A DNA stretch of 52,021 nucleotides. It comes from Actinomycetota bacterium (lineage in GTDB: Bacteria > Actinomycetota > UBA4738 > HRBIN12). The stretch spans positions 1-52,021 of the forward strand of contig DATBLA010000162.1 of the NCBI GenBank assembly GCA_036555645.1, read 5' to 3'. How positions within the stretch are numbered: the first letter of the stretch is position 1; every line of letters begins with the position of its first letter. Below are positions 1 to 13,020 of the stretch, in pieces. Below the pieces are notes generated by a model. The model saw nothing but the letters and a program-made list of their open reading frames with translations, had not been told where the DNA came from and ran no database searches. Made by a program: the position numbers and the translations under genes.

Positions 1-772
1 GCGTCCAGCAGATCACCGCGCGGTCGGCCTTCGCGTAGTCGAGCGCGAGCTCGCGGATCGCCGCGGCGGGGACGCCGGTCTCGGCCTGGCCGCGCTCGAG
101 CGTCCAGTCCTGCACCGACGCGCGGTACGCCTCGTACCCCTCGGTTCCGCGCGCGATGAACGCGTCGTGCTGGAGGTCGTTCGCGATGACCTCGCGGGCG
201 ATCGTGTTCGAGAGCGCGATGTCGGAGCCCACGTCGATCCCGAGCCAGAGATCGGCCCACTCGGCCGAGGACGTGCGCCGGGGGTCGACGACGATGAGCT
301 TCGCCCCACGATGGACCGCCTTCAGGACGTGGTGGAAGAAGATCGGATGCGTCTCGCGCGCATTCGATCCCCACAGCACGATGAGATCGGTGTGCTCGAT
401 CTCCTCGTACGAACTGGTCCCGCCACCTGCTCCGAACGCGGTCGCCAGACCGACGACCGAGGGAGCGTGTCAGGTGCGGTTGCAGCTGTCGATGTTGTTG
501 CTTCGAAGGACCGTCCGCATGAACTTCTGCGCGACGAAGTTCATCTCGTTCGTGGCCTTCGAGCAACTGAACAGGCCGACCCCGTCACCCTGGTTCCGCT
601 CGAACGCCGCCCGCAGACCCGACGCGGCCCGGTCGAGGGCCTCGTCCCAGGTCGCCGTGCGCAGGCCGCCGTTGTCACGGACCATCGGCTCGGTGAGCCG
701 CACGAGCCCGTTCTTCATCGAGGCGCGCTCCTTCCCGTCGATGACCGCATCGATTCTAAGCCGCGGCTCCAC
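1..772 (-). CDS. fdhA: Formate dehydrogenase catalytic (alpha) subunit, molybdopterin oxidoreductase family, selenocysteine-containing. Only the 5' part is present; the C-terminus runs off the left edge. Must be read through the TGA at 470-472.
   Basis: ORF 470..772 ends ...FVAQKFMRTVLRSNNIDSCNRT-TGA. My translation of the same frame continues HAPSVVGLATAFGAGGGTSSYEEIEHTDLIVLWGSNARETHPIFFHHVLKAVHRGAKLIVVDPRR...TGVPAAAIRELALDYA with no stop down to position 1. This is collinear by eye with the E. coli FdhF active-site region (NNVDCCARV-U-HGPSVAGL, from memory). GTG start lies 21 nt after the fdhD stop. Confidence 0.85.
439..459 (-). promoter_or_regulatory. Bacterial SECIS-like hairpin (recoding signal) downstream of the fdhA UGA
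   Basis: mRNA: UGA CACGCUCCCU CGGUCGUC-GGUCU-GGCGACCG. This is an 8-bp stem (7 Watson-Crick pairs plus 1 G-U) with a GGUC-containing loop, starting 10 nt after the UGA. Spacing and Gly-Leu (GGU CUG) loop codons match the E. coli fdhF SECIS as I recall it. Confidence 0.7.
470..472 (-). other. In-frame UGA, predicted selenocysteine codon of fdhA
   Basis: The TGA sits between ...SCNRT and HAPSVVGL..., exactly at the position of Sec in Sec-type formate dehydrogenases. The reading frame stays open on both sides. Confidence 0.8.
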
Positions 773-793: not shown

Positions 794-1669
794 TCAGCTG
801 CGGATGCGCTCGGGGTGCGTGTAGACGTTCGCCCGACCGTCGCGGACGAACCCGACGAGGGTCATGCCGAACCGCTCCGCGGCCTCCACGGCCAGCGAGG
901 ACGGCGCGCTCACGGCGCTCACGATCGGGACGCCGGCGACCGCCGCCTTCTGGACGATCTCGAACGACGCCCGGCCGCTCACCTGCATCACGGTCTCGGA
1001 GGCGGGGACGGAGCCGGCGAGGTAGCGCTCGCCGACCACCTTGTCGACCGCGTTGTGGCGGCCCACGTCCTCGCGGACGGTGACGGTCTCGCCGTCGGGC
1101 GTGAACAACCCGGCGGCGTGCAGCCCACCGGTCCGCTCGAACACCGCCTGCCCCTCCCGCAGCCGGTCGGGGAGCCCGACGACGACGCCGAGATCGACCT
1201 CGGGGCCGGGACCGACGGGCCGGCACCGGACCTCGATGTCCTCGAGCGCGGCCTTGCCGCACACGCCGCAGGAGGACGTGGCGTAGAAGTTCCTGCGCAG
1301 CCGTTCGGCGTCGAAGGCCCGCTCGAGCGTGACCGAGACGACGTTGTACCGCTGCTCCTCTCCCGGCAGGTTGTCGCAGTAGGCCACGCGGCGAACCTCG
1401 CCGGGCACGATGAGCCCCTCGGTGAACAGGAACCCGACCGCGAGCTCGAAGTCGCCGCCGGGCGTCCGCATCGTGACGGCCACCTGCACCTGGTCCTGAT
1501 CCGGTCCCTGGACGCGGATCTCCAGCGGCTCCTCGGTGGCGAGGGTGTCGGTCCGCTCGGCTCGAGTGCCCTCCGCCATCGCGACGAGGCGCGCGCGGGT
1601 CAGGTTCGTCCGGATCGGCTCGGAGACGGCCACGTCCCCAGTATCCGGCGCGAGCGCCGCCGGGTCCAC
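794..1669 (-). CDS. fdhD: Formate dehydrogenase accessory sulfurtransferase FdhD
   Basis: 291 aa with the SSCGVCGK cysteine loop and GRHNAVDK motif typical of FdhD. Lies immediately upstream of fdhA. Confidence 0.9.
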
Positions 1670-1675
1670 GCCGGG

Positions 1676-2890
1676 CTAGTGCGAGACGGCGGCGGCGGCG
1701 ATCTCGGAGACGAGCTCGCGCTTCCAGAACCGGTCCAGCGCGAACGGCGCGATGAGCTCCGGGACCGTGCCGGTATCGATCAGCTCGGCCATCGTGACGC
1801 CCACGATCGGCGTGGCCTTGAAGCCGTACGTCCCCCATCCTCCGTCGATGTGGAAGCCCTCGACCTCGGTCGTGCCCATGATCGGCGAGTAGTCGGGCGT
1901 GACGTCGCACAGGCCGCCCCACGCGCGCATCACCTTCACGCGGGACAGGATCGGCAGCAGCTCCAGGGCATGCTCGGCCGTGACCTCGAGGAAGTCGAGC
2001 GTGGACTCCTGCGAGTAGGAGGAGTACGGCTCGATCTCCGAGCCGATCAGCACCTCGCCGCGGTCGGTCTGCGAGACGTAGACGTGCAGCGTGGCCGAGA
2101 CGAGGATCACGTGCAGGAACGGCTTGAGCGGTTCGGTGACGAAGGCCTGCAGCGGGTGGGTCGTGATCGGCACCCGGACGCCGGCCATGCGAGCGATCTC
2201 CGAGGTCCAGCCCGCGACGGCCGAGACCACGACCGGCGCCGAGACGTCCCCGGCCGTGGTCGAGACGCCGGTCACCGCTCCGCCGTCGACCTTCACCCCG
2301 GTGACCTCGACGCCCTGGTGGATCTCGACCCCGCGGCGGTCGGCCTGCCGCGCGTACGCCCACACCACGGCGTCGTGACGGATCACGCCGCCCGGAGGGT
2401 GATACAGCGCGGCCATGATCGGGAACGCCGGGCGGTCGGACAGGTCGAGCTCCGGGCAGAGCCGTCGGATCTCCTCCGGCCCGATCACGCGCGAGTCGAC
2501 GCCGAGGAGGCGGTTCACCTCGGCGCGCTCGTGCGCGACGTTCACGGCCCGCTCGGCGTGGGCGAGCGTGAGGTGCCCCTGCTGGGAGAACAGCAGGTTG
2601 TAGTCGAGCTCCTGGGCGAGGTGCTCGTAGAGCCTGAGCGACTCCTTGTAGAAGGCGACGCCCTCGGGTGTCCGGTAGTTGGCGCGGATGATCGTGGTGT
2701 TCCGGCCCGAACCGCCGGCCCCGATGTAGCGCTTCTCCAGGACGGCCACCTTCCGGATGCCTCGCTTGGCGAGCTCGTACGCGATCGCCAGGCCGTGCGC
2801 GCCGCCGCCCACGATCACGACGTCGTACGTCGGCTTCAGATCGTGGCGGCGCCACATCCGCCACGGCTGGAAGTAGCGGATGGGATGCAT
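1676..2890 (-). CDS. soxB: Heterotetrameric sarcosine oxidase / N-methylglutamate dehydrogenase, beta-type subunit (FAD)
   Basis: Internal ATG at 2890 (MHPIRYFQPW...) overlaps the soxG stop as ATGA. Contains YDVVIVGGGAHGLAIAYELAK dinucleotide fold, GRNTTIIRANY and C-terminal GWGTYGFKATP. The upstream part of the 531-aa ORF is Arg/Gly-rich GC noise. Confidence 0.9.
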   Translation of the reverse strand: MHPIRYFQPWRMWRRHDLKPTYDVVIVGGGAHGLAIAYELAKRGIRKVAVLEKRYIGAGGSGRNTTIIRANYRTPEGVAFYKESLRLYEHLAQELDYNLLFSQQGHLTLAHAERAVNVAHERAEVNRLLGVDSRVIGPEEIRRLCPELDLSDRPAFPIMAALYHPPGGVIRHDAVVWAYARQADRRGVEIHQGVEVTGVKVDGGAVTGVSTTAGDVSAPVVVSAVAGWTSEIARMAGVRVPITTHPLQAFVTEPLKPFLHVILVSATLHVYVSQTDRGEVLIGSEIEPYSSYSQESTLDFLEVTAEHALELLPILSRVKVMRAWGGLCDVTPDYSPIMGTTEVEGFHIDGGWGTYGFKATPIVGVTMAELIDTGTVPELIAPFALDRFWKRELVSEIAAAAVSH

Positions 2891-3516
2891 CAGGACCACC
2901 CCTGCGCCCGGAGCGCCGTCCACCCGACGGGACCGCCACCGCTCCGCCGGACCGCGTCGAGCACGGCATCCCAGGCGTATCGCGCGAACTCCGTCGCGAC
3001 GTAGGCCTCGAGGACCGGGACGTCGAGGTCCCGGCGAAGGAGCACGGCCCGAACGTCGGCGATCGGCGCCCCGGTGGCCTTCCCGGGCTCGAGCGTGGCG
3101 GGGTCCCACGACGTCAGGCGCGCGAGCGCCTCGGGCAGCGCCGGCCCGGCGAGCGCGAAGCCGGCGAACAGGTGCGTGGCGTCGGTCACCATCGCGCCGG
3201 TTCCGGCGGCCGACTCCATCTTGGGAACGAGGACCTCCTCGCCTCCGGGTTCGGTGAGCACGAGCGCCCACTCGCCGGACACGCGCGCGACGAGGGCGTC
3301 GCCGGCCGAGGCGAGCGGGAGCTCGATCCCGCCGCGGACGTCGACCTTGCCGCGCGGCGTGATATCGACGAGGGCGACGGCGCCGGCGAGCAACGCGCGT
3401 TCGTCCCGCTCGTCGCCGTAGCGCGACACCAGCTCCCAGTCGTCCTCGCGGTCGAGCACCGCGCCGAGCCGACCGTGCATCCGGGCCAGCGGCGATCGGC
3501 GGACGGGCTCGTTCAC
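2890..3516 (-). CDS. soxG: Sarcosine oxidase gamma-type subunit
   Basis: 208 aa from GTG 3516, which forms a GTGA overlap with the soxA stop. The sequence has a small GcvT-like fold (LVDITPRGKVDVRGG...). It sits between the alpha and beta subunits. Confidence 0.75.
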   Translation of the reverse strand: MNEPVRRSPLARMHGRLGAVLDREDDWELVSRYGDERDERALLAGAVALVDITPRGKVDVRGGIELPLASAGDALVARVSGEWALVLTEPGGEEVLVPKMESAAGTGAMVTDATHLFAGFALAGPALPEALARLTSWDPATLEPGKATGAPIADVRAVLLRRDLDVPVLEAYVATEFARYAWDAVLDAVRRSGGGPVGWTALRAQGWS

Positions 3517-6314
3517 GAGCGAAGCCTCTGCCCCTCGGGGTCGTAGAACGGATGCATGGCGACGGTCCCGGTGGCTCGGCGCGTGCCGAACTGGATCTCG
3601 AACGTCGTTCCGTCGCTCGCCCATCCGGCCGGCACCCAGGCGAGACCGACGATCGCGCCGGCGGCCCGGCTGCGGCGGGCCGACGTCACGCGGCCCACCC
3701 ACACGCCCTCGTGCACGACGCTCGCGCCCTCGGGCGGGAGCCAGTCGCCGCCCGCCGTGAACCCGACGAGGCGCTCGCCGGGAGCCTCGACGCCGAGCCC
3801 CTCGAGCCCTCGCTTGCCCAGGAAGTCGTCCTTGTCGGCCTTCACGGTCCAGCCCATCCCGACCTCGAACGGGTCGGATTCGGCGTCGGTGTCCTGGCCG
3901 ACGAGGATGTGCTGCTTCTCCAGACGCAGGATCCGCTGCGCCTCGAGCCCGAACGGCAGGATCCCCCGCTCCTGCCCGGCCGCCATGATCGCGTCCCAGA
4001 CGTGCTGCCCGTACATCGACGGGAAGTGGATCTCGTAGCCGAGCTCGCCGACGAACCCGATCCGGAGCACCAGCGCCCTCACCCCGGCCACGTCCATCGT
4101 CGAGGCCGACAGGTACGGCAGGGCGTCGCTCGAGACGTCCGCATCGGTGAGCGAACGCATGACCTCGCGCGCCGCCGGCCCGGCGAGGTTCACCGCGGCG
4201 AACGCGCCGGTGACGTTCAGGACCTGGACATCGAGTCCCCAGTCGGCGTTCCACCACGTGATCCAGCGCTCGAGCGCCGCCGTGTTCCCCGTCGTCACCG
4301 TCACGAAGAACTCGTCCTCGCCGACGCGGGCGACGGTCCCGTCGTCCAGGATCACGCCCTCGTCGTTCAGCATCAGGCCGTAGCGGATCCGGCCGAGCCG
4401 CTGGTCGCCGAACCGGTTCGGGTACAGGCGGTCGAGCAGCGGCACGGCCTCCGGCCCCTTGACGCGGAACTTGCCCAGGGAGCTGACGTCGATGAGGCCC
4501 ACCCGGGTGCGAACGGCCTCGACCTCCTCCTCCGGGCTCGTGTACCGATGCGGGCGCCGCCAGTCGCCGGCCCACATGAACGCGGCACCTGCGTCGGCGT
4601 GGCCGTCGTGCATCGTCGTCTGCTTGCCCGGGGTTCGACGCCAACCGGCGAGCGTGCCGAGCTCGACCGGCGCCCACGGCGGCCGCGCCGTCGTCGGCGG
4701 CGTCTCGGAGAAGGACGAGCCCGTGGCGCGCGAGCACAGGCGCTGCGACGCCAGCATGCACGCCTTGCCCTGGCAGGGACCCATCGTGATCGTGGTGTAG
4801 CGCTTGAGGAGCTCCATCGAGTCGAACCCCTCGGCTACCGCCGTCTTCAGCTCCTTGCCGGTCACGTCCATGCACAGGCAGGCGAACTGCTTCCCGTGTC
4901 CGTGGCCCGACTCCGGCGGCAGGACGACCGGGTCGCCCCCGGCGACCGCCTCCGCCCGAAGGCGCTCGATGCGGTCGGACGCATCGGCGGCCGCCGCCCC
5001 GAGCGCGAGGCCCGACTCGAGCCCGGCGAGCCGGCCCTGGGCGATGGCGGCGCCCAGCGTTCGGGCGCCGGCGACCGCGCCGGCCGCGTGGACGTTCGGC
5101 GGGAGCGACACGGGTAGGAACGCCTGCGCGTCCTCGTCGAAGGCAACCTCGGCACCCGTCATCGACAGCAGGTTCGTGGACGGTGCCCCGAAGCCGGCCA
5201 GCACGAGGAGGTCGCACGGGATCGACCTCCCGCCTTGCTCGCCGGGCGAGCCGACGATCACCTCGCGGACCCGGCGCCGGCCCTCGGCGGCGACGACCGT
5301 CGACCCGGCGATCACGCGCAGGCCGTCCGCCGCACGCGCGTCCGGCCGCAGATCGACGACGGTCACCTCGGCCCCCGCGTCGCGGAGCGTCGCCGCCGTG
5401 TCGTATCCCGGCGCGCTCGACGTCAGCACGACCGCATGGCGCCCCGGGAGGACGCTGAACCTCTTCACCAGCAGGTCGGCGGCGGACGAGAGCATGACGC
5501 CCGGCAGGTCGTTGTTCGGGAACACGGCGGCCTGCTCGACGGCGCCCGTCGCGAGCACGAGGTGGCGAGCTCGAACCCGGTACAGGCGGTCACGGCTCGA
5601 GGCGGCCACGAGCGGTCCTCCGAACACGCCGAACGCGGCCGTCCCGAGCAGGATCCGCGCCCCCGCGTCGGTCGCCTGCCGCCCGAGGTCCGCGACGTCG
5701 TCCGGATCGGCTCCGCCGAGCGTGTCGCGCTCCTCGAGCACGATCGTCGACAGGCCGGCCGACGCGGCCTCGGCCGCCGCCGCCAGACCGGCCGCCCCTC
5801 CCCCGATGACCAGCACGTCGGCGTGCAGGTTGTGCACCTCGCGAGGCTCGTGGTCCGGCTCGCGTGGCACCTTCCCGAGTCCCGCCTTCGAGCGGATGAA
5901 CGGCTCGACGGTTCGCCACGCCCACCGCGGGCGATGGAAGATCTTGTAGTAGAAGCCCGGAGGCATCATGAACGAGAACGAGTTCAGCCAGCCGTGCACG
6001 TCGAATGTCGCGCTCGGCCATGCGTTCTGACGCTCGACGCGCATGCCCTCGCGCACGGGCTCGGTGCAGGAGCGCACGTTCGGGATCCCGTCCACCTGCA
6101 TGAGGCAGTTCGGGCACGATCCGGTCATGCAGTACAGCCCGCGCGCCCGGTGGTACTTGAACGACCGGCCGGTGATCGAGACGCCGGCCGCGGCCAGCGC
6201 CGATCCGATCGTGTCGCCATCGAACGCCGCGACCCGCCGGCCCTCGAAGTCGAACGAGATCGGCCGGTCGCGACGGATCGTCTCGCCGGCCCGCGCCGCC
6301 AGACGCTCGCTCAT
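3513..6314 (-). CDS. soxA: Sarcosine oxidase alpha-type subunit (N-terminal 2Fe-2S-like/NAD-FAD domains plus C-terminal folate-binding GcvT-like domain)
   Basis: 933 aa with CMTGSCPNCLMQVDG, VLVIGGGAAGLAAAAEA and C-terminal GFVGELGYEIH ... FYDPEGQRLRS typical of aminomethyltransferase folds. Confidence 0.9.
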   Translation of the reverse strand: MSERLAARAGETIRRDRPISFDFEGRRVAAFDGDTIGSALAAAGVSITGRSFKYHRARGLYCMTGSCPNCLMQVDGIPNVRSCTEPVREGMRVERQNAWPSATFDVHGWLNSFSFMMPPGFYYKIFHRPRWAWRTVEPFIRSKAGLGKVPREPDHEPREVHNLHADVLVIGGGAAGLAAAAEAASAGLSTIVLEERDTLGGADPDDVADLGRQATDAGARILLGTAAFGVFGGPLVAASSRDRLYRVRARHLVLATGAVEQAAVFPNNDLPGVMLSSAADLLVKRFSVLPGRHAVVLTSSAPGYDTAATLRDAGAEVTVVDLRPDARAADGLRVIAGSTVVAAEGRRRVREVIVGSPGEQGGRSIPCDLLVLAGFGAPSTNLLSMTGAEVAFDEDAQAFLPVSLPPNVHAAGAVAGARTLGAAIAQGRLAGLESGLALGAAAADASDRIERLRAEAVAGGDPVVLPPESGHGHGKQFACLCMDVTGKELKTAVAEGFDSMELLKRYTTITMGPCQGKACMLASQRLCSRATGSSFSETPPTTARPPWAPVELGTLAGWRRTPGKQTTMHDGHADAGAAFMWAGDWRRPHRYTSPEEEVEAVRTRVGLIDVSSLGKFRVKGPEAVPLLDRLYPNRFGDQRLGRIRYGLMLNDEGVILDDGTVARVGEDEFFVTVTTGNTAALERWITWWNADWGLDVQVLNVTGAFAAVNLAGPAAREVMRSLTDADVSSDALPYLSASTMDVAGVRALVLRIGFVGELGYEIHFPSMYGQHVWDAIMAAGQERGILPFGLEAQRILRLEKQHILVGQDTDAESDPFEVGMGWTVKADKDDFLGKRGLEGLGVEAPGERLVGFTAGGDWLPPEGASVVHEGVWVGRVTSARRSRAAGAIVGLAWVPAGWASDGTTFEIQFGTRRATGTVAMHPFYDPEGQRLRS

Positions 6315-6619
6315 GCCTGCGAGGCCTCGGCCGCGTCGGCGCGTGCCTCCGTGACCCCGTCGTCCGAATCATTCGGCCGGTAGGTGCGGCGCACCTCGTT
6401 CGTCGTCGTGTGGCGCTCGGCCAGGAACCAGGTCCGGCACCCGTCGCGGTGCAACCACCACTCGGTCTGCCAGCCGTTCACGTTGTCACGGAAGAACAGG
6501 TAGCCGGCCAGGTCGGCGTCCGAGGAGTCCGGACCCGCCCGGCGCGACCGCTCGCCTCCGTAGGAGAACTCGAGCGCCTCCCTCGGACCGCAGTTCGGGC
6601 ACTCGATCAGGAAGGTCAT
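6311..6619 (-). CDS. soxD: Sarcosine oxidase delta-type subunit
   Basis: 102 aa starting MTFLIECPNCGPREALEFSYGGE...WWLHRDGCRTWF (zinc-ribbon SoxD signature). Its stop overlaps the soxA start by 4 nt. Confidence 0.9.
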   Translation of the reverse strand: MTFLIECPNCGPREALEFSYGGERSRRAGPDSSDADLAGYLFFRDNVNGWQTEWWLHRDGCRTWFLAERHTTTNEVRRTYRPNDSDDGVTEARADAAEASQA

Positions 6620-6677
6620 CGTTCGCGGATGCTACCGCTCCGATGGAGCGCGGTTCCCCGGCAGGACTGCCCCGGAT

Positions 6678-7163
6678 TCAGCCGGGGACGTCGCCCGGGA
6701 CCCACAGGAGACAGGTGACCCGTTCCCGCACGGCGCGAAGCGCCCGGCGGTAGCGCCGCCTCCGAAGGACCGAGCGATCGAGACCGAACACGAGCAGCCC
6801 CGGACGCACGTCGGCCACGAGCTCGACGAGGGCCTCGACCGGCCGCGGGCTCCGTACCCGGAGACGCTCCACGTGGACGCCGAGCGACCTCGCAAGGTCC
6901 GCGGAGCGCTTGAGGGAGGCCGAGACGTCGGGAGTGAGCTCGGGCAGCGTGTCGTACCCGAGCGCGATCGACATGCGAAGCGGCTCCAGCGTGGTGACGT
7001 TGGCGACCACGAGCCGCTGGCCGGACTCGACGGCCGTGTCGACGGCGAAGACCGAGGCCTCCTCGTCGAGCGGCACGCCCATCGTCGCGAGCAGCACCGG
7101 CCGCCCGCCCGCCCCCCTGCCGTTCGACAGGTCGGTCCCGCGATCCCGGGTGCGAACGCCCAT
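6678..7163 (-). CDS. Hypothetical protein, possibly a universal-stress-protein-like alpha/beta fold (start uncertain; alternative ATG at 7082)
   Basis: The only long ORF in this gap with a non-repetitive composition. No diagnostic motif was recognised. Confidence 0.4.
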   Translation of the reverse strand: MGVRTRDRGTDLSNGRGAGGRPVLLATMGVPLDEEASVFAVDTAVESGQRLVVANVTTLEPLRMSIALGYDTLPELTPDVSASLKRSADLARSLGVHVERLRVRSPRPVEALVELVADVRPGLLVFGLDRSVLRRRRYRRALRAVRERVTCLLWVPGDVPG

Positions 7164-7166
7164 GCC

Positions 7167-7550
7167 CTACTCGGGATGGAGCTGCCAGTGCGGCAGGTTC
7201 CGTGCGCGTCGGCGGACCTTCTGGCGCCAGCGCGGCATGTAGACGAGGAACCAGAACGCCATGAGCCCGAGGACGATCGGAAGGACCCGCTGGACGTCGA
7301 GGTTCGCCAGGACGATGGCCGCCCCGACGCCGAACGCGAGCGAGACCGCCACCACCTGCAACCGGTAGCGCCGCATCTCGCGCATGATGCCCCAGTACTC
7401 CTCCGCGGGGATCTGCTCGGTGTTCCAGCGCCGCGAGCAGTCCGGGCACGACCACGTCTGTCCGTACGGCACGCGCTCGACCTGACCGCAGTCGCATCGG
7501 ATCGTGATCGGGGCCCCGCGCATCGGCGGGATTGTATCCCCGGGGCGCAT
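7167..7550 (-). CDS. Zinc-ribbon membrane protein, hypothetical (alternative start at 7523)
   Basis: CDCG...CPDCSRRW four-Cys ribbon followed by two hydrophobic helices (VVAVSLAFGVGAAIVLA, VLPIVLGLMAFWFLVYM). Confidence 0.5.
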   Translation of the reverse strand: MRPGDTIPPMRGAPITIRCDCGQVERVPYGQTWSCPDCSRRWNTEQIPAEEYWGIMREMRRYRLQVVAVSLAFGVGAAIVLANLDVQRVLPIVLGLMAFWFLVYMPRWRQKVRRRARNLPHWQLHPE

Positions 7551-7630
7551 CCGCCCGCTTTGAACGCCCGAACCCCAACGTGCTATACCCCTCGCTGCCG
7601 TTCATCGGATCGCCGGGGAAGGGGGATGCC

Positions 7631-9142
7631 GTGGCTGAGGCCGTCATCGAGGAACGCCAACTCCTCAAGTCTCTGCACTGGTACGACGGGTTCGTCATCG
7701 CGCTGTGCCAACCGGCGTTCCTCCTCGGGTCGCTCGGCTTCACGCTGGCGACGATCGGCGCCTGGGGGTCGGTCCTGCTGTGGGGCATCTCCGCGACGGT
7801 CGGCCTCCTCCAGAACTTCATCTATACGGAGACCGCCACGATGTTCCCGGACAAGCCCGGCGGGATCGCGCTGTACGCGCACGAGGGATGGCGCTCGCGC
7901 TTCAACCTGTTCGGGCCGATCGCCGCGTTCGGGTACTGGATCGGCTGGTCGGTCGTGCTCTCGTTCGTTGGGAACATCGTCGGCGCGCTCGTCGTGGCCG
8001 AGTGGTTCCCCCAGTCGGGCGACGGCACCGATGACGCGTTCTTCAACCTCGGGTTCGCCGACTTCGGCCTCGCTCAGCTCATCGCCATCGTGGTGATCCT
8101 CGCGGTCTGGGCGTTCAACGTGCTCGGGGTCAAACCCTCGCTCGCGGTCGGCTACGTCACCGGCGCGTTGCTGATGGTGCCGCTGTTCATCTTCATCGTC
8201 ATGCCGTACATCACGGGCGACTGGTCCAGCTCGAACCTCGAGTACGTCCACAACGCCGGCGACCCGTCCCTCGGATTCAGCGACCTGTCGGTGGCCTTGA
8301 TGTGGCTGTTCATCATGTGTTGGTCCGCCTACGGGATCGAGGTCTGCGCGACCTTCGCGCCCGAGTACCACGACACGAAGCGCGACACCGCGAAGGCCCT
8401 GAAGAGCGCCGCGGCGTTCTCGCTGTTCGTGTACATCTTCCTGCCGCTCGGCCTGGGCGGCGTCGTCGGCTCGACGGGTGACTACGGCAGCTTCTACGTC
8501 GCGGCACTCGAGGAGATCGCCGGGCCGGTGGTCGGCGGGTTCGCCGTGGTGTGCCTCATCGGGAGCTTGATCCTGGCGATGAACACCGCCACGGCCGACG
8601 GGGGCCGCGCGCTCTACGGGATCGCTCGCGACGACATGACGATCAAGTGGTTCTTCCACCTGAACCGGTTCCACGTGCCGGCCCGTGGGATGACCGTCGA
8701 CATGGTCGTGAACCTCGGATTGCTCGTCCTCCTGGGCGCGAACAACTTCGTGATCCTGTACATCTCGAACATCGGGTACGTGTTCTGTCACGTCCTCGCG
8801 CTCACTGGGTTCCTGTTGCTCCGGCGCGATCGTCCCCAGTGGCCGCGCCCGATCAAGGTGGGCGGGGCGTGGTTGCCGATCGCCGGCCTGCTCGCCCTGT
8901 TCAACCTCATCCTGGTGCTCTATGGCGTGTTCGATCAGGACCTGGCCGCGTACATCGGCTTCTACGAGTTCACCGGTCTGCCGCTGTTCCTCGGTCTGGG
9001 CGTGCTCGTCGCGTCGGTGCTCCTGTACTTCTACCGGCGCGTGGTCCAGGACAAGGAGAAGATCACCTTCCGCGATCGCGACGTGTCGACGATGCCGAAC
9101 GAGGAGCAGATGGCGCTCCTCCGCGAGGAGTCGATGGCCTAG
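7631..9142 (+). CDS. APC-superfamily amino acid / amine permease
   Basis: GTG 7631 is preceded by GGAAGGGGGA. About 12 hydrophobic segments. The N-terminal LHWYDGFVIALCQP and the overall pattern fit the amino acid/polyamine/organocation family. Confidence 0.8.
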   Translation: MAEAVIEERQLLKSLHWYDGFVIALCQPAFLLGSLGFTLATIGAWGSVLLWGISATVGLLQNFIYTETATMFPDKPGGIALYAHEGWRSRFNLFGPIAAFGYWIGWSVVLSFVGNIVGALVVAEWFPQSGDGTDDAFFNLGFADFGLAQLIAIVVILAVWAFNVLGVKPSLAVGYVTGALLMVPLFIFIVMPYITGDWSSSNLEYVHNAGDPSLGFSDLSVALMWLFIMCWSAYGIEVCATFAPEYHDTKRDTAKALKSAAAFSLFVYIFLPLGLGGVVGSTGDYGSFYVAALEEIAGPVVGGFAVVCLIGSLILAMNTATADGGRALYGIARDDMTIKWFFHLNRFHVPARGMTVDMVVNLGLLVLLGANNFVILYISNIGYVFCHVLALTGFLLLRRDRPQWPRPIKVGGAWLPIAGLLALFNLILVLYGVFDQDLAAYIGFYEFTGLPLFLGLGVLVASVLLYFYRRVVQDKEKITFRDRDVSTMPNEEQMALLREESMA

Positions 9143-9166
9143 CGATCTCGGCGGCGTTCGGATCTC

Positions 9167-9197
9167 GACGGGGGCGGCCCTTCCGGCTGCCCCCGTC
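9167..9197 (+). terminator. Strong GC hairpin after the permease stop (terminator or attenuator candidate, no U-tract)
   Basis: GACGGGGGCGGCC-CTTCC-GGCTGCCCCCGTC: a 13-bp stem with one mismatch and a 5-nt loop, starting 25 nt after the TAG at 9140-9142. Confidence 0.4.
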
Positions 9198-9275
9198 GCC
9201 GTTCGCGCCGCGTTGCTCGCCCGAAGTCCCCGAAACTAGGATGTGGGCCCGCGAGGGCCACCTTTGGAGGACGCG

Positions 9276-10679
9276 ATGTCGGAGAAGATGTGGGGCTCGG
9301 AGCCGTTCTGGGGTCTCGGCTACGACTGGGACCCGGACTGGGTCTACACCGATCGGCAGAAGGAGCTCCGCGCGACGCTCATCGAGCTCTGCGAGCAGGA
9401 GCTGCGCGCCAACTCGAAGCGCTTCGACGACGAGCTCATGTTCCCCCGGCGGAACCTCGAGCTCCTGGGTGAGCACGGGTTCCTCGCGCTCACCGTCCCC
9501 GAGGCGTACGGCGGTCTGGGCGAGGACCACGTCGCCTACTCGATGGTGTGCGAGACGATCGCCCGGTACGGATGCGCGTCGACGGCGATGTGCTACGTCA
9601 TGCACATCGGGGCCGTGAACGCGATCATGCTCCGAGAGACGCCGGAGCTGATCGACAAGTACATCCGGCCGCTGAACTCGGGCAAGATCGGGACGCTGTC
9701 CTACTCGGACCCGGAGACCGGCTCGCACTTCTGGTACCCGGTCTCCTCGGGTGCCGAACGCTCGAACGGCGGCTACAAGGTCCGCAAGAAGGCGTCGTGG
9801 ACGACCTCGGCGGGGTTCGCCGACTTCTACGTGGTCCAGACGACGAGCCCGGACTTCTCTGGCTACGACGACCTGTCCGTGTTCGTCGTCGACGGCGACC
9901 AGGTCCAGTCGCAGCCGTCGCTGTGGGACGCCCTCGGCCTTCGAGGCAACCAGTCGGGGCCGCTCGAGGTGCCGAACGTGGACGTTCCCGCCGAGCAGAT
10001 CGTCGGGCCGGAGGGCGACGGGGCGAACTCGAACGACGAGTCCGTCGACCCGTGGTTCCTCATCGGCTCGTCGTCGGTGTGGAACGGCCTCGCGCTCGGG
10101 GCGATCGACATCGCCAAGCGCCACACGACGCGCAAGAAGCACGTCGACGTCGGCCTGCGGGTGGCCGACTACCCCACGATCCAGGACTACGTGGGCGAGG
10201 CGCTCATGGACACGAACGCGTGCCGGCTCTTCGTCCTGTCGGTCGCGCAGGCGATGGACCGCGAGACCGACGGCAACACGCGCAACCCCGAGCCCGGCGG
10301 CCTCGCTCGCGGCAACTACCTCCACTGGGCGTGGCAGATCAAGTTCGAGGCGGCCAAGAACGTCGCCCACGTGGTCGACAAGATGCTCCACGCCTGCGGC
10401 GGATCGGGCTACAAGCGCGACATGGAGCTCGAGCGCTACCTGCGCGACGCCAAGGCCGGCTGGGTCATGGGGCCGACGAACGAGGTCCTCCGCCAGTTCG
10501 TCGGGAAGGCCGTCCTGCTCGGGTTCGAGTCGCTCGACTACTGGAACCAGTCGTACAACCGGCGGGCCGTCGAGAACGAGGTGAAGAAGCTCGACGCGGC
10601 CGGCAAGCGCGAGCTCGCCGAGCAGCTGATGTCCGAGGCCGCGGAGCAGGAGCCGAAGGAACCGGCGAAGAAGGGCTAG
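9276..10679 (+). CDS. Acyl-CoA dehydrogenase-fold flavoprotein; probably not a classical ACAD (oxidase or two-component monooxygenase type possible)
   Basis: ATG 9276 follows GGAGGA. ACAD-like N-terminal, middle and C-terminal regions are visible (GFLALTVPEAYGGLG, SYSDPETGSHFW, RYLRDAKAGWVMGPTNEVLRQ). Where MCAD-type enzymes have IYEGTNEI, this protein reads VMGPTNEV, so the catalytic Glu appears replaced by Gly (alignment by eye). Confidence 0.8.
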   Translation: MSEKMWGSEPFWGLGYDWDPDWVYTDRQKELRATLIELCEQELRANSKRFDDELMFPRRNLELLGEHGFLALTVPEAYGGLGEDHVAYSMVCETIARYGCASTAMCYVMHIGAVNAIMLRETPELIDKYIRPLNSGKIGTLSYSDPETGSHFWYPVSSGAERSNGGYKVRKKASWTTSAGFADFYVVQTTSPDFSGYDDLSVFVVDGDQVQSQPSLWDALGLRGNQSGPLEVPNVDVPAEQIVGPEGDGANSNDESVDPWFLIGSSSVWNGLALGAIDIAKRHTTRKKHVDVGLRVADYPTIQDYVGEALMDTNACRLFVLSVAQAMDRETDGNTRNPEPGGLARGNYLHWAWQIKFEAAKNVAHVVDKMLHACGGSGYKRDMELERYLRDAKAGWVMGPTNEVLRQFVGKAVLLGFESLDYWNQSYNRRAVENEVKKLDAAGKRELAEQLMSEAAEQEPKEPAKKG

Positions 10680-10683
10680 ACGG

Positions 10684-13020
10684 ATGCAGGTGGGCGGCGG
10701 GCCCTCGAAGCTCCTGGTCGGCGGACTGCGCCCGGCCGATCCCACGTTCGAGCAGTACTGGGTGCGGCCCGGCGGGGCGACGGTGCTGGCGCTCGAGGCC
10801 GAGGACCGGTTCACCGTGATCGACGTCGACGGCGGTCAGGTTGCGGAGATCTCGGCCCTCGGACCGGACGGCTCGGACGCGGCCGAGGCGATCGGCGCCC
10901 GAGCCGACGCGGCGGCGACGGTGCTGCGATCGCTCGTGACCTCCGCCGCCGAGGGCTCGCAGGACGTCGTCCACGATCTCGCCGCCCGCGGGCTCGACCC
11001 GTCCCGGGCAGAGGCCATCCGCGTGTTCGACCAGTGGTCCCGACCCGGATCCGAACAGTCGTTCCGAACGGACCGCGAGGTCGTCCTCGTCGTGGCCGCC
11101 CCGGCGGGGCGCCTCGTCGACGGTGCCCCCCCGCCGAGCGATCTCGTCGTCGAGGTGCATCGTGCCCGCCCGCGATCACCCGGGGAGATCGAGCTCCCTC
11201 CACCGCTCGCCGAACCGCGTCTGGACTTCCGCATCGACCGGTCGACCGCGCGCAGCTACGAGGTGAAGGCGGGCGAGTTCATCCAGATCATCGACGTCGA
11301 GGGCAAGCAGTGCTCGGACTTCCTCGCGTTCCATCGCCGCAAGCTCGACGACGGGATCGAGCGCGGCCTGGACTCCACCGTCACGCGCACGCTCATGGGC
11401 AGCGCGTACCCGATGCCGGGACTGTTCGGCAAGTTCTACGACGCCGACCTGGACCCGCTCGTCGAGGTGGTCCGGGACACGGTGGGGCGGCACGACACGT
11501 TCGGACTCGCTTGCAACGCAAAGTACTACGAGGACATGGGCTACCCCGGGCACGTGAACTGCACCGACAACTTCAACGGCGCGCTCCTCGTGTACGAGAT
11601 CGCCAAGCGCAAGGGCTGGCCGGCGCTCAACCTGTTCTTCAACACGGCGTTCAACGCCGAGAACGTGCTCGTCTCGGACGAGCCGTGGTCCCGGCCGGGC
11701 GACTACGTGCTGTTCCGGGCGATGACCGGCCTCGTGTGCGCCTCGTCCGCATGCCCGGACGACATCGACCCGGCGAACGCGTGGAACCCCACCGACGTCC
11801 ACGTGCGCGTCTACTCGCCGGAGCACCGGTTCAGCGCCGCGATCGCCCACCGCGTCACCCCGGAGGCGCGACCCGTGCTCACCGACAGGACCGGGTTCCA
11901 CCCGAAGGTCGAGGCGCTCACGCGCAACCTCGTCGAGTACAACGGCTACTGGCTCCCGTCCCACTTCTCCAACGAGGGGGCGATCGCCGAGTACTGGGCG
12001 TGCCGCGAGCACGCGGTGATCATCGACCTGTCGCCCCTTCGCAAGTTCGAGGTCCTCGGGCCGGACGCCGAGTCGCTCATCCAGGCCACGATCACCCGCG
12101 ACGCCCGGCGGGTGTCGGTGGGGCAGGTCACGTACACGGCGATGTGCAACGAGGCCGGCGGGATGATCGACGACGCCACGGTCTTCCGCCTCGCGCAGGA
12201 CAATTTCCGGTTCGTGGGCGGCGACGACTACGACGGCGTGTGGCTGAAGGAGCAGGCCGAGGCCCGGGACCTGAACGTGTGGGTCAAGCCCTCGACCCAC
12301 CAGCTGCACAACGTGGCCGTCCAGGGTCCGGCGAGCCGAGGGATCCTCCGCGAGGTCGTGTGGACGGCCCCGTCGCAGCCCTCGCTCGATGAGCTCGGGT
12401 GGTTCCGCTTCCTGGTCGGACGGGTCCGGGCGACCGACGGCATCCCGATCGTCGTGTCCCGGACCGGGTACACGGGCGAGCTGGGCTACGAGGTGTGGTG
12501 CCATCCCGACGACGCCGAGGCCGTGTGGGACGCCATCTGGGAGGCCGGCGAGGGCCGCGGTCTCACGCCGATGGGCCTGGACGCCCTCGACATCGTGCGG
12601 ATCGAGGCCGGGCTCATCGTGGCCGGCAACGAGTTCGACCAGCAGGTCGATCCGTTCGAGGCCGGCATCGGGTTCACGGTCGACCTGCGCACCGACGAGG
12701 CGTTCGTCGGGCGTTCGGCGCTGGAAGGACGCAAGGAGCATCCGCAGCGCGTGCTCGTGGGGCTCGACGTCGACGGCAACGAGACGCCCGGCCACGGCGA
12801 TCCCGTGTTCGTCGGCCGTCAGGAGATCGGCGTGGTGACCTCGGGCACGCGCTCACCGGTCCTGAAGCGGACGATCGCGCTCGCGCGGGTCGCGGTCGGG
12901 TTCTCCGAGCTCGGGACGCCGGTCGAGATCGGCCAGCTCGACGGGCTCCAGAAACGGATCGCCGCGAGGGTCGTCCGATTCCCCTTCTACGACCCCGAGA
13001 AGACCCGGCCGAGGTCCTGA
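10684..13020 (+). CDS. Fusion protein: degenerate DUF1989-like segment plus canonical DUF1989 (urea-carboxylase-associated / CgdAB-like) domain plus C-terminal aminomethyltransferase (GcvT) fold
   Basis: 778 aa. Residues ~190-400 carry YEVKAGEFIQIIDVEGKQCSDFLAF, GRHDTFGLACN, NLFFNTAF and GDYVLFRAMTGLVCASSACPDD (DUF1989 pattern as I recall it). Residues ~30-190 repeat only the opening motif (RFTVIDVDGGQVAEISAL) and end like a DUF1989 (SDLVVEVHR). Residues ~420-778 carry GcvT motifs (VIIDLSPLRKFEVLGPDA, SRTGYTGELGYEVW, RFPFYDPEKTRPRS). Confidence 0.8.
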   Translation: MQVGGGPSKLLVGGLRPADPTFEQYWVRPGGATVLALEAEDRFTVIDVDGGQVAEISALGPDGSDAAEAIGARADAAATVLRSLVTSAAEGSQDVVHDLAARGLDPSRAEAIRVFDQWSRPGSEQSFRTDREVVLVVAAPAGRLVDGAPPPSDLVVEVHRARPRSPGEIELPPPLAEPRLDFRIDRSTARSYEVKAGEFIQIIDVEGKQCSDFLAFHRRKLDDGIERGLDSTVTRTLMGSAYPMPGLFGKFYDADLDPLVEVVRDTVGRHDTFGLACNAKYYEDMGYPGHVNCTDNFNGALLVYEIAKRKGWPALNLFFNTAFNAENVLVSDEPWSRPGDYVLFRAMTGLVCASSACPDDIDPANAWNPTDVHVRVYSPEHRFSAAIAHRVTPEARPVLTDRTGFHPKVEALTRNLVEYNGYWLPSHFSNEGAIAEYWACREHAVIIDLSPLRKFEVLGPDAESLIQATITRDARRVSVGQVTYTAMCNEAGGMIDDATVFRLAQDNFRFVGGDDYDGVWLKEQAEARDLNVWVKPSTHQLHNVAVQGPASRGILREVVWTAPSQPSLDELGWFRFLVGRVRATDGIPIVVSRTGYTGELGYEVWCHPDDAEAVWDAIWEAGEGRGLTPMGLDALDIVRIEAGLIVAGNEFDQQVDPFEAGIGFTVDLRTDEAFVGRSALEGRKEHPQRVLVGLDVDGNETPGHGDPVFVGRQEIGVVTSGTRSPVLKRTIALARVAVGFSELGTPVEIGQLDGLQKRIAARVVRFPFYDPEKTRPRS

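What the first reader, a model, noticed from the sequence alone, without database searches (positions are those of the whole stretch)
439..772. In-frame UGA plus fdhF-type SECIS: a selenocysteine formate dehydrogenase that an ORF caller splits
The ORF track stops fdhA at TGA 470-472. The codon lies between ...NNIDSCNRT and HAPSVVGL..., which is the position of Sec in E. coli FdhF (CARV-U-HGPSVAGL, from memory). Ten nt after the UGA the mRNA reads CGGUCGUC-GGUCU-GGCGACCG. That is an 8-bp stem with a GGUC-containing loop formed by the Gly-Leu codons, the same geometry as the E. coli fdhF SECIS as I recall it. Sec decoding is sporadic in GC-rich, WhiB/F420-type (actinobacterial-looking) genomes. 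Standard pipelines would report a pseudogene or two fragments.
Basis: partly seen in the sequence, partly recalled or inferred. Interest (0 to 1): 0.65.

Follow-up and report, generated by a model that had tools for sequence, protein, structure and literature searches.

The report
Selenocysteine formate dehydrogenase, correctly spotted
The in-frame UGA is a genuine selenocysteine codon with its mRNA hairpin in the catalytic subunit of a formate dehydrogenase, but this enzyme type is already described in cultured actinobacteria, so this is an annotation catch and not a discovery.

Summary
On the minus strand, fdhA starts at ATG 718 and has an in-frame TGA at 472-470. That codon aligns with Sec140 of E. 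coli FdhH. An 8-bp hairpin with a GGUCU loop begins 10 nt after the UGA, and the loop lies at the same 18-nt offset as in E. coli fdhF.

- The genome has tRNA-Sec, selA, selB and selD.
- UGA is otherwise its commonest stop codon.
- The UGA sits in the same column in 28/28 orthologues from relatives and in 75/75 more distant loci.
- The 6-bp core of the hairpin pairs in all 80 distinct sequences and shows a clean C-G/G-C compensatory switch.
- The loop glycine codon is GGU in 93/93 sequences.
- One Cys-type homologue has lost the hairpin.

Gene callers do truncate this family: most database entries are 545-558 aa instead of about 638 aa.

Caveats:
- The gene is cut by the contig end after codon 239.
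- The two outer base pairs of the stem are specific to this genome.
- There is no expression evidence.

The protein lacks the N-terminal Fe-S domain. In relatives, and on another contig of this genome, that domain is a separate subunit. This three-subunit Sec enzyme was published as FDH3 of Actinomycetospora chiangmaiensis (PMC7176365). It is a new member of a known kind, and its interest is low.

The parts
2..718 (-). fdhA, 5' part (codons 1-239 of about 638): catalytic Mo/W-bisPGD subunit of a formate dehydrogenase, cut off by the contig end
   Evidence: TIGR01591 Fdh-alpha positions 53-284, 247.5 bits. PF00384. E. coli FdhH 1aa6 residues 61-295, E = 2.4e-50. The start M(K/R)NG is conserved, with stop codons just upstream in orthologues.
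470..472 (-). In-frame UGA read as selenocysteine (residue U83)
   Evidence: Aligns with X140 (Sec) of FdhH. TGA is in the same column in 28/28 and 75/75 orthologues. UGA is otherwise the main stop codon, and only tRNA-Sec has anticodon UCA.
429..466 (-). SECIS element: lower stem 466-462 with 433-429, upper stem 459-452 with 446-439 (conserved core 457-452 with 446-441), apical loop GGUCU 451-447
   Evidence: RNAfold. Covariation on 80 sequences. Frozen GGU codon. Full-length but sub-threshold match to Rfam SECIS_3 with the UGA in register. Same offset as E. coli fdhF. Lost in the Cys-type homologue.
728..735 (-). Shine-Dalgarno GGAAGGAG, 9 nt before ATG 718
   Evidence: Read directly from the sequence. 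The equivalent region translates as ...GGKE(H/R)AS-M... in orthologues.
794..1669 (-). fdhD, accessory sulfurtransferase for formate dehydrogenase, directly upstream and co-directional
   Evidence: NF001943 305.5 bits (cut-off 269) and PF02634 223 bits. fdhD-fdhA adjacency is conserved in relatives and in L143.

Best explanation
The TGA at 472-470 (minus strand) is decoded as selenocysteine, the molybdenum or tungsten ligand of a formate dehydrogenase catalytic subunit. The likely mechanism is as follows. When the ribosome reaches the UGA, the mRNA just downstream folds into a SECIS hairpin: a lower 5-bp stem, a conserved 6-bp upper stem and a GGUCU loop 18 nt after the UGA. SelB carrying Sec-tRNA(Sec) binds that loop and delivers selenocysteine, so translation continues to a protein of about 638 aa. 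The protein is the C-terminal, pterin-binding part of an FdsA/FdhF-type alpha subunit and has no Fe-S domain of its own. In relatives, and on contig C118 of this genome, the operon continues with a NuoE/NuoF fusion subunit (FMN, NAD+) and a separate NuoG-like Fe-S subunit whose C-terminus is the missing Molybdop_Fe4S4 domain, then mobA. The enzyme is therefore most likely a cytoplasmic three-subunit NAD+-reducing formate dehydrogenase of the FDH3 type described in Actinomycetospora chiangmaiensis. Here it sits directly after a sarcosine-oxidase-like soxDAGB cluster and fdhD, inside a methylated-amine catabolic island. Shown: the UGA position, the Sec machinery, conservation of the UGA, covariation in the hairpin, and the subunit architecture in orthologues. 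Inferred: actual Sec insertion, SelB binding to the loop, NAD+ as electron acceptor, and that this copy has the same downstream genes.
For: UGA position:
- The UGA aligns with Sec140 of FdhH and is followed by the catalytic His.

Sec machinery in the same genome:
- tRNA-Sec, selA, selB and selD are all above curated cut-offs.
- selA is present in 39/41 relatives.

UGA as a normal stop elsewhere:
- UGA is the ordinary stop in 505/740 confident ORFs.
- No other tRNA has anticodon UCA.

Conservation of the UGA:
- TGA is in the same column in 28/28 relatives at 63-88% identity and in 75/75 motif-bearing loci from several phyla.
- The frame stays open for about 555 codons after it.

Hairpin:
- The core pairs in 80/80 sequences, with a compensatory C-G/G-C switch (61/19/0 broken). 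The covariation score exceeds all 500 shuffles and all slid controls.
- The loop codon GGU is invariant in 93/93, although U is used at about 14% of other conserved Gly codons.
- The Cys-type homologue has GGC-CUC in the loop and a broken 3' arm.
- Rfam SECIS_3 aligns end to end with its UGA on this UGA.

Architecture:
- The orthologue P0003 matches TIGR01591 positions 53-672 (636.5 bits). The separate Fe-S protein matches positions 1-50.
- The operon fdhD-fdhA-nuoEF-FeS-mobA is seen in relatives and in L143.
- The published FDH3 has subunits of 640 aa (U80), 614 aa and 316 aa. It was detected in the proteome, and formate removal depended on selenium (PMC7176365).
Against: - There is no direct evidence of expression or selenium incorporation for this organism.
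- The gene is truncated at codon 239 by the contig end. This copy's Arg333 equivalent, its C-terminal domains and its downstream partners are therefore unseen.
- The only other fragment in the assembly (C118) is a different, diverged copy.
- Folding energy alone is not significant.
- The Rfam SECIS_3 score of 20.9 bits is far below the gathering score of 63.
- The hairpin-loss control rests on a single Cys-type homologue.
- The hairpin codes for a highly conserved peptide, so part of its sequence conservation is due to the protein.
Confidence: 0.92

Rival explanations
1. The UGA is a true stop. The gene is a pseudogene or is expressed as two separate polypeptides, which is how gene callers report it.
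For: UGA is the commonest stop codon in this genome. Databases hold the family mostly as 545-558-aa proteins starting after the UGA. This copy cannot be followed beyond codon 239.
Against: The frame and the peptide on both sides of the UGA are conserved in more than 100 genomes, with the UGA always in the catalytic Sec column. In this window the first in-frame start after the UGA is the GTG at 379, 31 codons downstream. A product from there would lack the conserved His and the glycine-rich segment. The GTG used by callers in relatives is GCG here. The full Sec machinery is present.
Confidence: 0.03
2. The hairpin is only a by-product of the conserved Ser-Val-Val-Gly-Leu-Ala-Thr coding sequence and is not a functional RNA signal.
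For: The amino-acid sequence is nearly invariant, so first and second codon positions are fixed by the protein. Folding energy is not better than shuffles.
Against: The signal lies at synonymous third positions. Val+5 and Ala+9 switch together (C-G to G-C) and are never unpaired in 80 sequences. Gly+7 is GGU in 93/93, against a strong C/G preference elsewhere, and it is the only frozen four-fold site of 35. The Cys-type homologue uses GGC-CUC and breaks the stem.
Confidence: 0.03
3. The organism reads UGA as a standard amino acid throughout its genome (as in genetic codes 4 or 25), or the TGA is a sequencing or assembly error.
For: None specific. It is a metagenome-assembled genome with 4.4% estimated contamination.
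Against: 505 of 740 confident long ORFs end in TGA, both Trp tRNAs have anticodon CCA, and the only UCA anticodon belongs to tRNA-Sec. fdhD, directly upstream, ends in TGA. The same TGA occurs in more than 100 independent assemblies.
Confidence: 0.01

Closest known systems
FDH3 of Actinomycetospora chiangmaiensis DSM 45062 (FdhA3 WP_084681743.1, FdhB3, FdhC3; Rohwerder et al. 2020, PMC7176365, Suppl. Figs S2 and S4)
   Same: The catalytic subunit has about 640 aa, is homologous only to the pterin-binding C-terminal part of FdsA, and has Sec near residue 80 (U80 there, U83 here) with a predicted SECIS. There is a separate Fe-S subunit of about 316 aa homologous to the FdsA N-terminus, a NuoE+NuoF fusion subunit of about 614 aa, and an associated fdhD. 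Orthologues here measure 638, about 616 and about 310-327 aa.
   Different: This is a different, uncultured lineage of soil Actinomycetota. Here the gene follows a soxDAGB-like cluster in a methylated-amine island, not a 2-HIBA pathway context. Direct sequence identity to WP_084681743.1 could not be measured with the tools at hand. This copy is truncated by the assembly.
E. coli formate dehydrogenase H (FdhF) and its fdhF SECIS
   Same: Sec is at the homologous position, followed by His (U140-H141 there, U83-H84 here). The aligned part scores E = 2.4e-50. The GGUCUG loop sequence, from the Gly-Leu codons, lies exactly 18 nt after the UGA, on a stem interrupted by an internal loop.
   Different: FdhF carries its own N-terminal [4Fe-4S] domain (residues 1-60) and works in the formate hydrogenlyase complex. 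This protein starts at the equivalent of residue 55-61 and partners with NuoEF-like and NuoG-like subunits. The E. coli upper stem has a bulged U and A-U/G-C pairs. This one has no bulge, a U-G wobble, and a 5-nt loop closed by C-G.
NAD+-dependent FdsGBA(CD) formate dehydrogenases of Cupriavidus necator and Rhodobacter capsulatus, and FDH1 of Methylorubrum extorquens
   Same: The redox modules are the same: NuoE-like 2Fe-2S, NuoF-like FMN/4Fe-4S, NuoG-like Fe-S chain and Mo/W-bisPGD domain. An FdhD-type sulfurtransferase is present. PDB relatives 6tg9 and 7vw6 match at E about 1e-38.
   Different: In those enzymes the alpha subunit is one chain of about 950-990 aa, and the metal ligand is Cys (PMC7176365 Suppl. 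Fig. S4). Here the alpha subunit is split between TIGR01591 positions 50 and 53, the gene order is permuted (Mo domain first, Fe-S domain last), NuoE and NuoF are fused, and the ligand is Sec.
Rfam SECIS_3 (RF01989)
   Same: The model aligns over its full length (1-59) with its UGA on this UGA and its apical loop on this GUC.
   Different: It scores 20.9 bits against a gathering score of 63 (E = 0.1 for 1.2 kb), so by Rfam's criterion this element is not a member.

Membership tests
Sec-containing Mo/W-bisPGD formate dehydrogenase catalytic subunit (FdhF/FdhA selenoprotein) | In-frame UGA at the position of the metal-ligand Sec (Sec140 of E. coli FdhH), followed by the catalytic His | tested here: met
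   phmmer alignment to 1aa6 puts residue 83 on X140, with H84 on H141. The real fdhF has UGA at codon 140.
Sec-containing Mo/W-bisPGD formate dehydrogenase catalytic subunit (FdhF/FdhA selenoprotein) | Catalytic Arg (Arg333 of FdhH, in the motif P-x-R-G-Q-N-N-V-Q-G) and the C-terminal pterin-dinucleotide-binding domain | tested here: inconclusive
   Present in the 87%-identical orthologue P0003 (NPLRGQNNVQGGGD; PF01568) and in the C118 copy. The window's own copy ends at codon 239, before this region.
Bacterial SECIS element (fdhF type) | Stem-loop immediately 3' of the UGA with G and U in the apical loop at a fixed distance, conserved wherever the UGA is conserved | tested here: met
   The GGUCU loop lies 18 nt after the UGA, as in E. 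coli. The core pairs in 80/80 sequences with compensatory change. GGU is invariant in 93/93. The element is lost in the Cys homologue.
Bacterial SECIS element (fdhF type) | Binding by SelB and dependence of UGA read-through on the hairpin | not testable with these tools
   This needs a reporter fusion or a SelB gel-shift assay.
Sec-decoding trait | tRNA-Sec (selC), selA, selB and selD in the same genome | tested here: met
   RF01852 70.6 bits (cut-off 47), and ARAGORN calls SeC with anticodon tca. TIGR00474 495 bits, TIGR00475 310 bits and TIGR00476 384 bits, all over cut-off.
Rfam SECIS_3 (RF01989) | Score at or above the gathering threshold of 63 bits | tested here: not met
   20.9 bits, E = 0.1.
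NCBIfam TIGR01591 Fdh-alpha (equivalog) | Whole-protein score at or above 666.25 bits | tested here: not met
   The window fragment scores 247.5 bits. The full-length orthologue scores 636.5 bits over positions 53-672 only. The missing positions 1-50 lie on the separate Fe-S subunit, which scores 55.1 bits.
FDH3-type three-subunit cytoplasmic Sec formate dehydrogenase (A. chiangmaiensis, PMC7176365) | Alpha subunit of about 640 aa without an Fe-S domain and with Sec near residue 80; a separate NuoG-like Fe-S subunit of about 316 aa; a NuoE+NuoF fusion subunit of about 614 aa | tested here: met
   Orthologues: 638 aa with U83 and stop codons just upstream of the start. A 616-622-aa NuoEF fusion and a 310-327-aa Fe-S protein ending in PF04879. 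For the window's own copy the downstream genes are not assembled.
FDH3-type three-subunit cytoplasmic Sec formate dehydrogenase (A. chiangmaiensis, PMC7176365) | Orthology by direct sequence comparison with WP_084681743.1, and formate:NAD+ oxidoreductase activity | not tested
   That sequence could not be fetched with the tools available. The activity needs a bench assay.

The most novel reading that the evidence does not exclude
This split, Sec-dependent FDH3-type enzyme may be the only molybdenum or tungsten formate dehydrogenase of a whole order of uncultured soil Actinomycetota, with close relatives in Chloroflexota, Acidobacteriota and Dormibacterota. In this genome it is transcriptionally coupled to a methylated-amine/sarcosine-oxidase island. 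If so, selenium supply would gate the last step of C1 oxidation from methylamines and TMAO in soils. The enzyme would also be systematically under-counted in metagenome surveys, because nearly all database entries are truncated calls.
Probability: 0.3. Interest if true: 0.35.

Novelty: new member of a known kind. Interest (0 to 1): 0.2.

Why it matters
The main value is for annotation. The gene should be called as one CDS of about 638 aa with a Sec exception at codon 83, not as a pseudogene or as two fragments. The same correction applies to the truncated entries of this family in metagenome protein databases: almost all of the 120 best hits are truncated, out of at least 8000 hits at E <= 1e-50. 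For the biology, it shows that this uncultured actinobacterial order keeps the Sec trait stably (selA in 39/41 genomes). It also shows that the only recognisable formate dehydrogenase in this assembly depends on selenium and lies next to a methylated-amine oxidation island. None of this changes what is known about Sec decoding or formate dehydrogenases.

Tried and rejected
- Joining the gene to contig C118: the ends do not overlap. C118 carries a different copy, with about 60-65% amino-acid identity to the window over the shared 80 residues. C118 resembles G011/G002 orthologues (88-90%), whereas the window resembles G013 (87%). The window's 3' part is therefore not in the assembly.
- Folding energy as evidence for the hairpin: it is not significant against dinucleotide shuffles, so I relied on covariation.
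- Rfam membership: only a sub-threshold SECIS_3 match.
- Co-occurrence of selA with this fdhA among relatives: uninformative, because selA is nearly universal in the order, including genomes without a close orthologue.
- A second Sec formate dehydrogenase of the FdoG or actinobacterial type: none found in this genome.
- The complete Fdh-alpha-like gene on C218: it is NasC-like (Cys-Met, no catalytic His or Arg) and not a selenium-independent FDH.
- Not attempted: structure prediction (not needed for the question) and a genome-wide search for other selenoprotein families.

Full report
**What is in the sequence**

On the minus strand a gene starts at ATG 718-716. It is preceded by GGAAGGAG at 735-728 and runs off the left end of the window. 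The window is a whole contig, C162, of a 2.47-Mb metagenome-assembled genome in 218 contigs. Only the first 239 codons of the gene are therefore present.

Codon 83 is TGA (472-470), flanked by ...NNIDSCNRT and HAPSVVGL... Ten nucleotides after the UGA the RNA reads CGGUCGUC-GGUCU-GGCGACCG (459-439). RNAfold folds this as an 8-bp stem with a 5-nt loop, sitting on a 5-bp lower stem GCUCC/GGAGC.

**Identity of the protein**

- The 239-aa product matches NCBIfam TIGR01591 (formate dehydrogenase subunit alpha) over profile positions 53-284. It also matches Pfam PF00384.
- The best solved structure is E. coli formate dehydrogenase H (1aa6, E = 2.4e-50). In that alignment residue 83 falls on X140, the selenocysteine, and is followed by the catalytic His.
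- I fetched the real K-12 fdhF. Its UGA is codon 140, and the GGUCUG of its SECIS loop lies 18 nt after the UGA, exactly as here.
- The gene upstream (794-1669) is fdhD, the accessory sulfurtransferase (305.5 bits against a cut-off of 269).

**Sec machinery and the genetic code**

The same genome carries:
- tRNA-Sec: Rfam 70.6 bits against a cut-off of 47, and ARAGORN calls it SeC with anticodon UCA.
- selA (495 bits) and selB (310 bits), adjacent on contig C20.
- selD (384 bits).

All are above curated cut-offs. UGA is otherwise the commonest stop codon (505 of 740 confident long ORFs). The two Trp tRNAs have anticodon CCA, and no other tRNA reads UGA. This excludes genome-wide reassignment of UGA. 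selA is present in 39 of 41 relatives in the same order, so the trait is stable in this lineage.

**Conservation of the UGA**

- Searching 40 relatives with the joined protein gave 28 genomes with an orthologue at 63-88% identity, and every one has a TGA inside the match.
- In all loci examined the TGA is in the same column, and most then stay open for 555-556 more codons. That gives a protein of 638 aa.
- A scan of one genome per species found at least 590 related loci. They come from uncultured soil Actinomycetota (including Gaiellales, Solirubrobacterales and Acidimicrobiales), Chloroflexota, Acidobacteriota, Dormibacterota and others.
- Of the 80 loci kept, 75 contained the motif and all 75 have TGA.

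**Evidence that the hairpin is an RNA signal**

Folding energy alone is not significant in this GC-rich sequence (z = -1.66 and -0.29). Comparison with orthologues gives the evidence.

- On 80 distinct 75-nt sequences, the six inner pairs of the upper stem are paired in every sequence.
- Pair 27-39 is C-G in 61 and G-C in 19, and is never broken. The switch is made by two synonymous third-position changes (Val GUC/GUG with Ala GCG/GCC).
- Pair 29-37 is U-G, C-G or U-A.
- The covariation score is 0.142 against 0.067 +/- 0.007 in shuffles (0 of 500 reach it) and at most 0.051 with slid partners.
- Among 35 conserved four-fold-degenerate codons in 93 distinct orthologues, the only one with no third-base variation is the loop glycine at +7. 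It is GGU in 93/93, whereas U is used at about 14% of other conserved Gly codons.
- The lower stem is less clean. Pair 18-51 shows U-A, A-U, C-G and G-C types but is unpaired in 23 sequences.
- The two outer pairs that give this window its 8-bp stem are unpaired in 46 and 37 of the 80 sequences. The conserved stem is therefore 6 bp.
- A Cys-type homologue (P0010, TGC, 74% identity) has GGC-CUC in place of GGU-CUG and a broken 3' arm.
- Rfam's SECIS_3 model aligns end to end with its UGA on this UGA, but at 20.9 bits against a gathering score of 63. The element is not a member of that family by Rfam's criterion.

**Behaviour of gene callers**

Almost all of the 120 best database hits to the full-length orthologue are 545-558 aa and cover about 85% of it. 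The two read start about 11 codons after the UGA, for example VFGAGGGTSS... Their source names include "formate dehydrogenase major subunit" and "YjgC".

In this window even that false start is unavailable, because the codon is GCG here, not GTG. The next in-frame start is 31 codons downstream.

**Architecture and likely function**

- The protein begins at the equivalent of FdhH residue 55-61 and has no [4Fe-4S] domain. Orthologues have stop codons just upstream of the conserved M(K/R)NG start, so this is real.
- In relatives, in the Cys-type locus and on contig C118 of this genome, the operon is fdhD, fdhA, a 616-622-aa NuoE+NuoF fusion, a 310-327-aa NuoG-like Fe-S protein, then mobA.
- The C-terminus of the Fe-S protein is the Molybdop_Fe4S4 domain.
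- The split is clean. The orthologue matches TIGR01591 positions 53-672 (636.5 bits, just under the 666.25 cut-off), and the Fe-S protein matches positions 1-50.
- The modules are those of NAD+-reducing FdsGBA-type enzymes. A cytoplasmic formate:NAD+ oxidoreductase is therefore the best reading. This is an inference.
- The other complete Fdh-alpha-like gene of the genome (C218) is NasC-like and lacks the catalytic His and Arg. No FdoG-type enzyme was found. This Sec enzyme is thus the only recognisable metal-dependent formate dehydrogenase in the assembly.
- Earlier notes place the window in a methylated-amine catabolic island. The soxDAGB-like genes run directly into fdhD-fdhA.

**Comparison with what is known**

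Rohwerder et al. 2020 (PMC7176365, main text and Suppl. Figs S2 and S4) describe FDH3 of Actinomycetospora chiangmaiensis:
- A 640-aa FdhA3 homologous only to the pterin-binding C-terminal part of FdsA, with selenocysteine U80 and a predicted SECIS.
- A separate 316-aa FdhC3 homologous to the N-terminal Fe-S domain.
- A 614-aa NuoE+NuoF FdhB3.

All three subunits were detected in the proteome, and formate removal depended on selenium. That is the architecture found here. Sec formate dehydrogenases and their SECIS are also catalogued across mycobacteria (PMC13449736). The finding is therefore a correct identification of a new member of a known kind.

**Caveats**

- This copy is truncated by the assembly.
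- Contig C118 starts with a second, diverged copy and is not the continuation. I cannot tell whether the genome has two operons or the bin mixes two populations.
- The hairpin-loss control rests on one Cys-type homologue.
- Direct comparison with the published FdhA3 sequence was not possible with the tools at hand.

Noticed in passing
window 2-718 (-); own genome contig C118 (locus L025) 3-1439, 1443-3290, about 3320-4252, 4164-4835: The alpha subunit is split exactly between TIGR01591 positions 50 and 53. The Mo-domain protein lacks the Fe4S4 domain, which forms the C-terminus of a separate NuoG-like Fe-S protein encoded two genes downstream (after a NuoE/NuoF fusion and before mobA). This matches the published FDH3 of Actinomycetospora chiangmaiensis.
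   Followed up: yes
window 1-243 (-) versus L025 (C118) 1-243 (+): Both contigs end inside the same stretch of fdhA, about 240 nt long, but carry different versions (about 80% nucleotide identity). The window copy is closest to genome G013, and the C118 copy to G011/G002. Either there are two paralogous operons (G011 also shows two copies) or two populations were binned together. The 3' part of the window's gene and the 5' part of the C118 gene are missing from the assembly.
   Followed up: partly
L144 (ENA farmland metagenome contig, 2183 nt), gene 170-2107: A close homologue has CGA (Arg) in place of the Sec UGA, while the SECIS hairpin is fully intact (8-bp stem, GGUCU loop). This is a single T-to-C difference in an otherwise Sec-type gene. 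It could be an inactivating mutation, a minor variant or an assembly error.
   Followed up: no
L143 (JGI metagenome contig) 5050-11513: A Cys-type (TGC) version of the same operon (fdhD, fdhA, nuoEF fusion, Fe-S subunit, mobA) sits next to formate-tetrahydrofolate ligase and a GcvT-family gene. This is a second, independent link between this enzyme and folate-bound C1 metabolism.
   Followed up: partly
Relatives G014:C2:270531-271091, and G003, G017, G019, G022 orthologues (L039/L059, L036, L034, L046/L062): Some orthologues deviate. G014 has two TGAs and only a partial match. Several assemblies with few contigs have reading frames ending early (153-484 codons after Sec) or running on (1173 codons). 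These look like frameshifts from long-read assembly errors or like decaying copies. The database entry P0083 is a frameshifted 'full-length' call of the same kind.
   Followed up: no
own genome contig C218 (locus L026) 3346-5652 (-): A complete 769-aa Fdh-alpha-like gene with its own Fe4S4 domain scores best as assimilatory nitrate reductase NasC (778 bits, below the cut-off of 1100). It has Cys-Met instead of Sec-His and lacks the catalytic Arg, so it is not a selenium-independent back-up formate dehydrogenase.
   Followed up: partly
own genome contig C20 11071-14299: selA and selB are adjacent and co-directional, 91 nt apart. tRNA-Sec (C35:480-572) and selD (C152:7155-8072) lie on other contigs, unlike the selC-selA-selB arrangement reported for many mycobacteria.
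   Followed up: no
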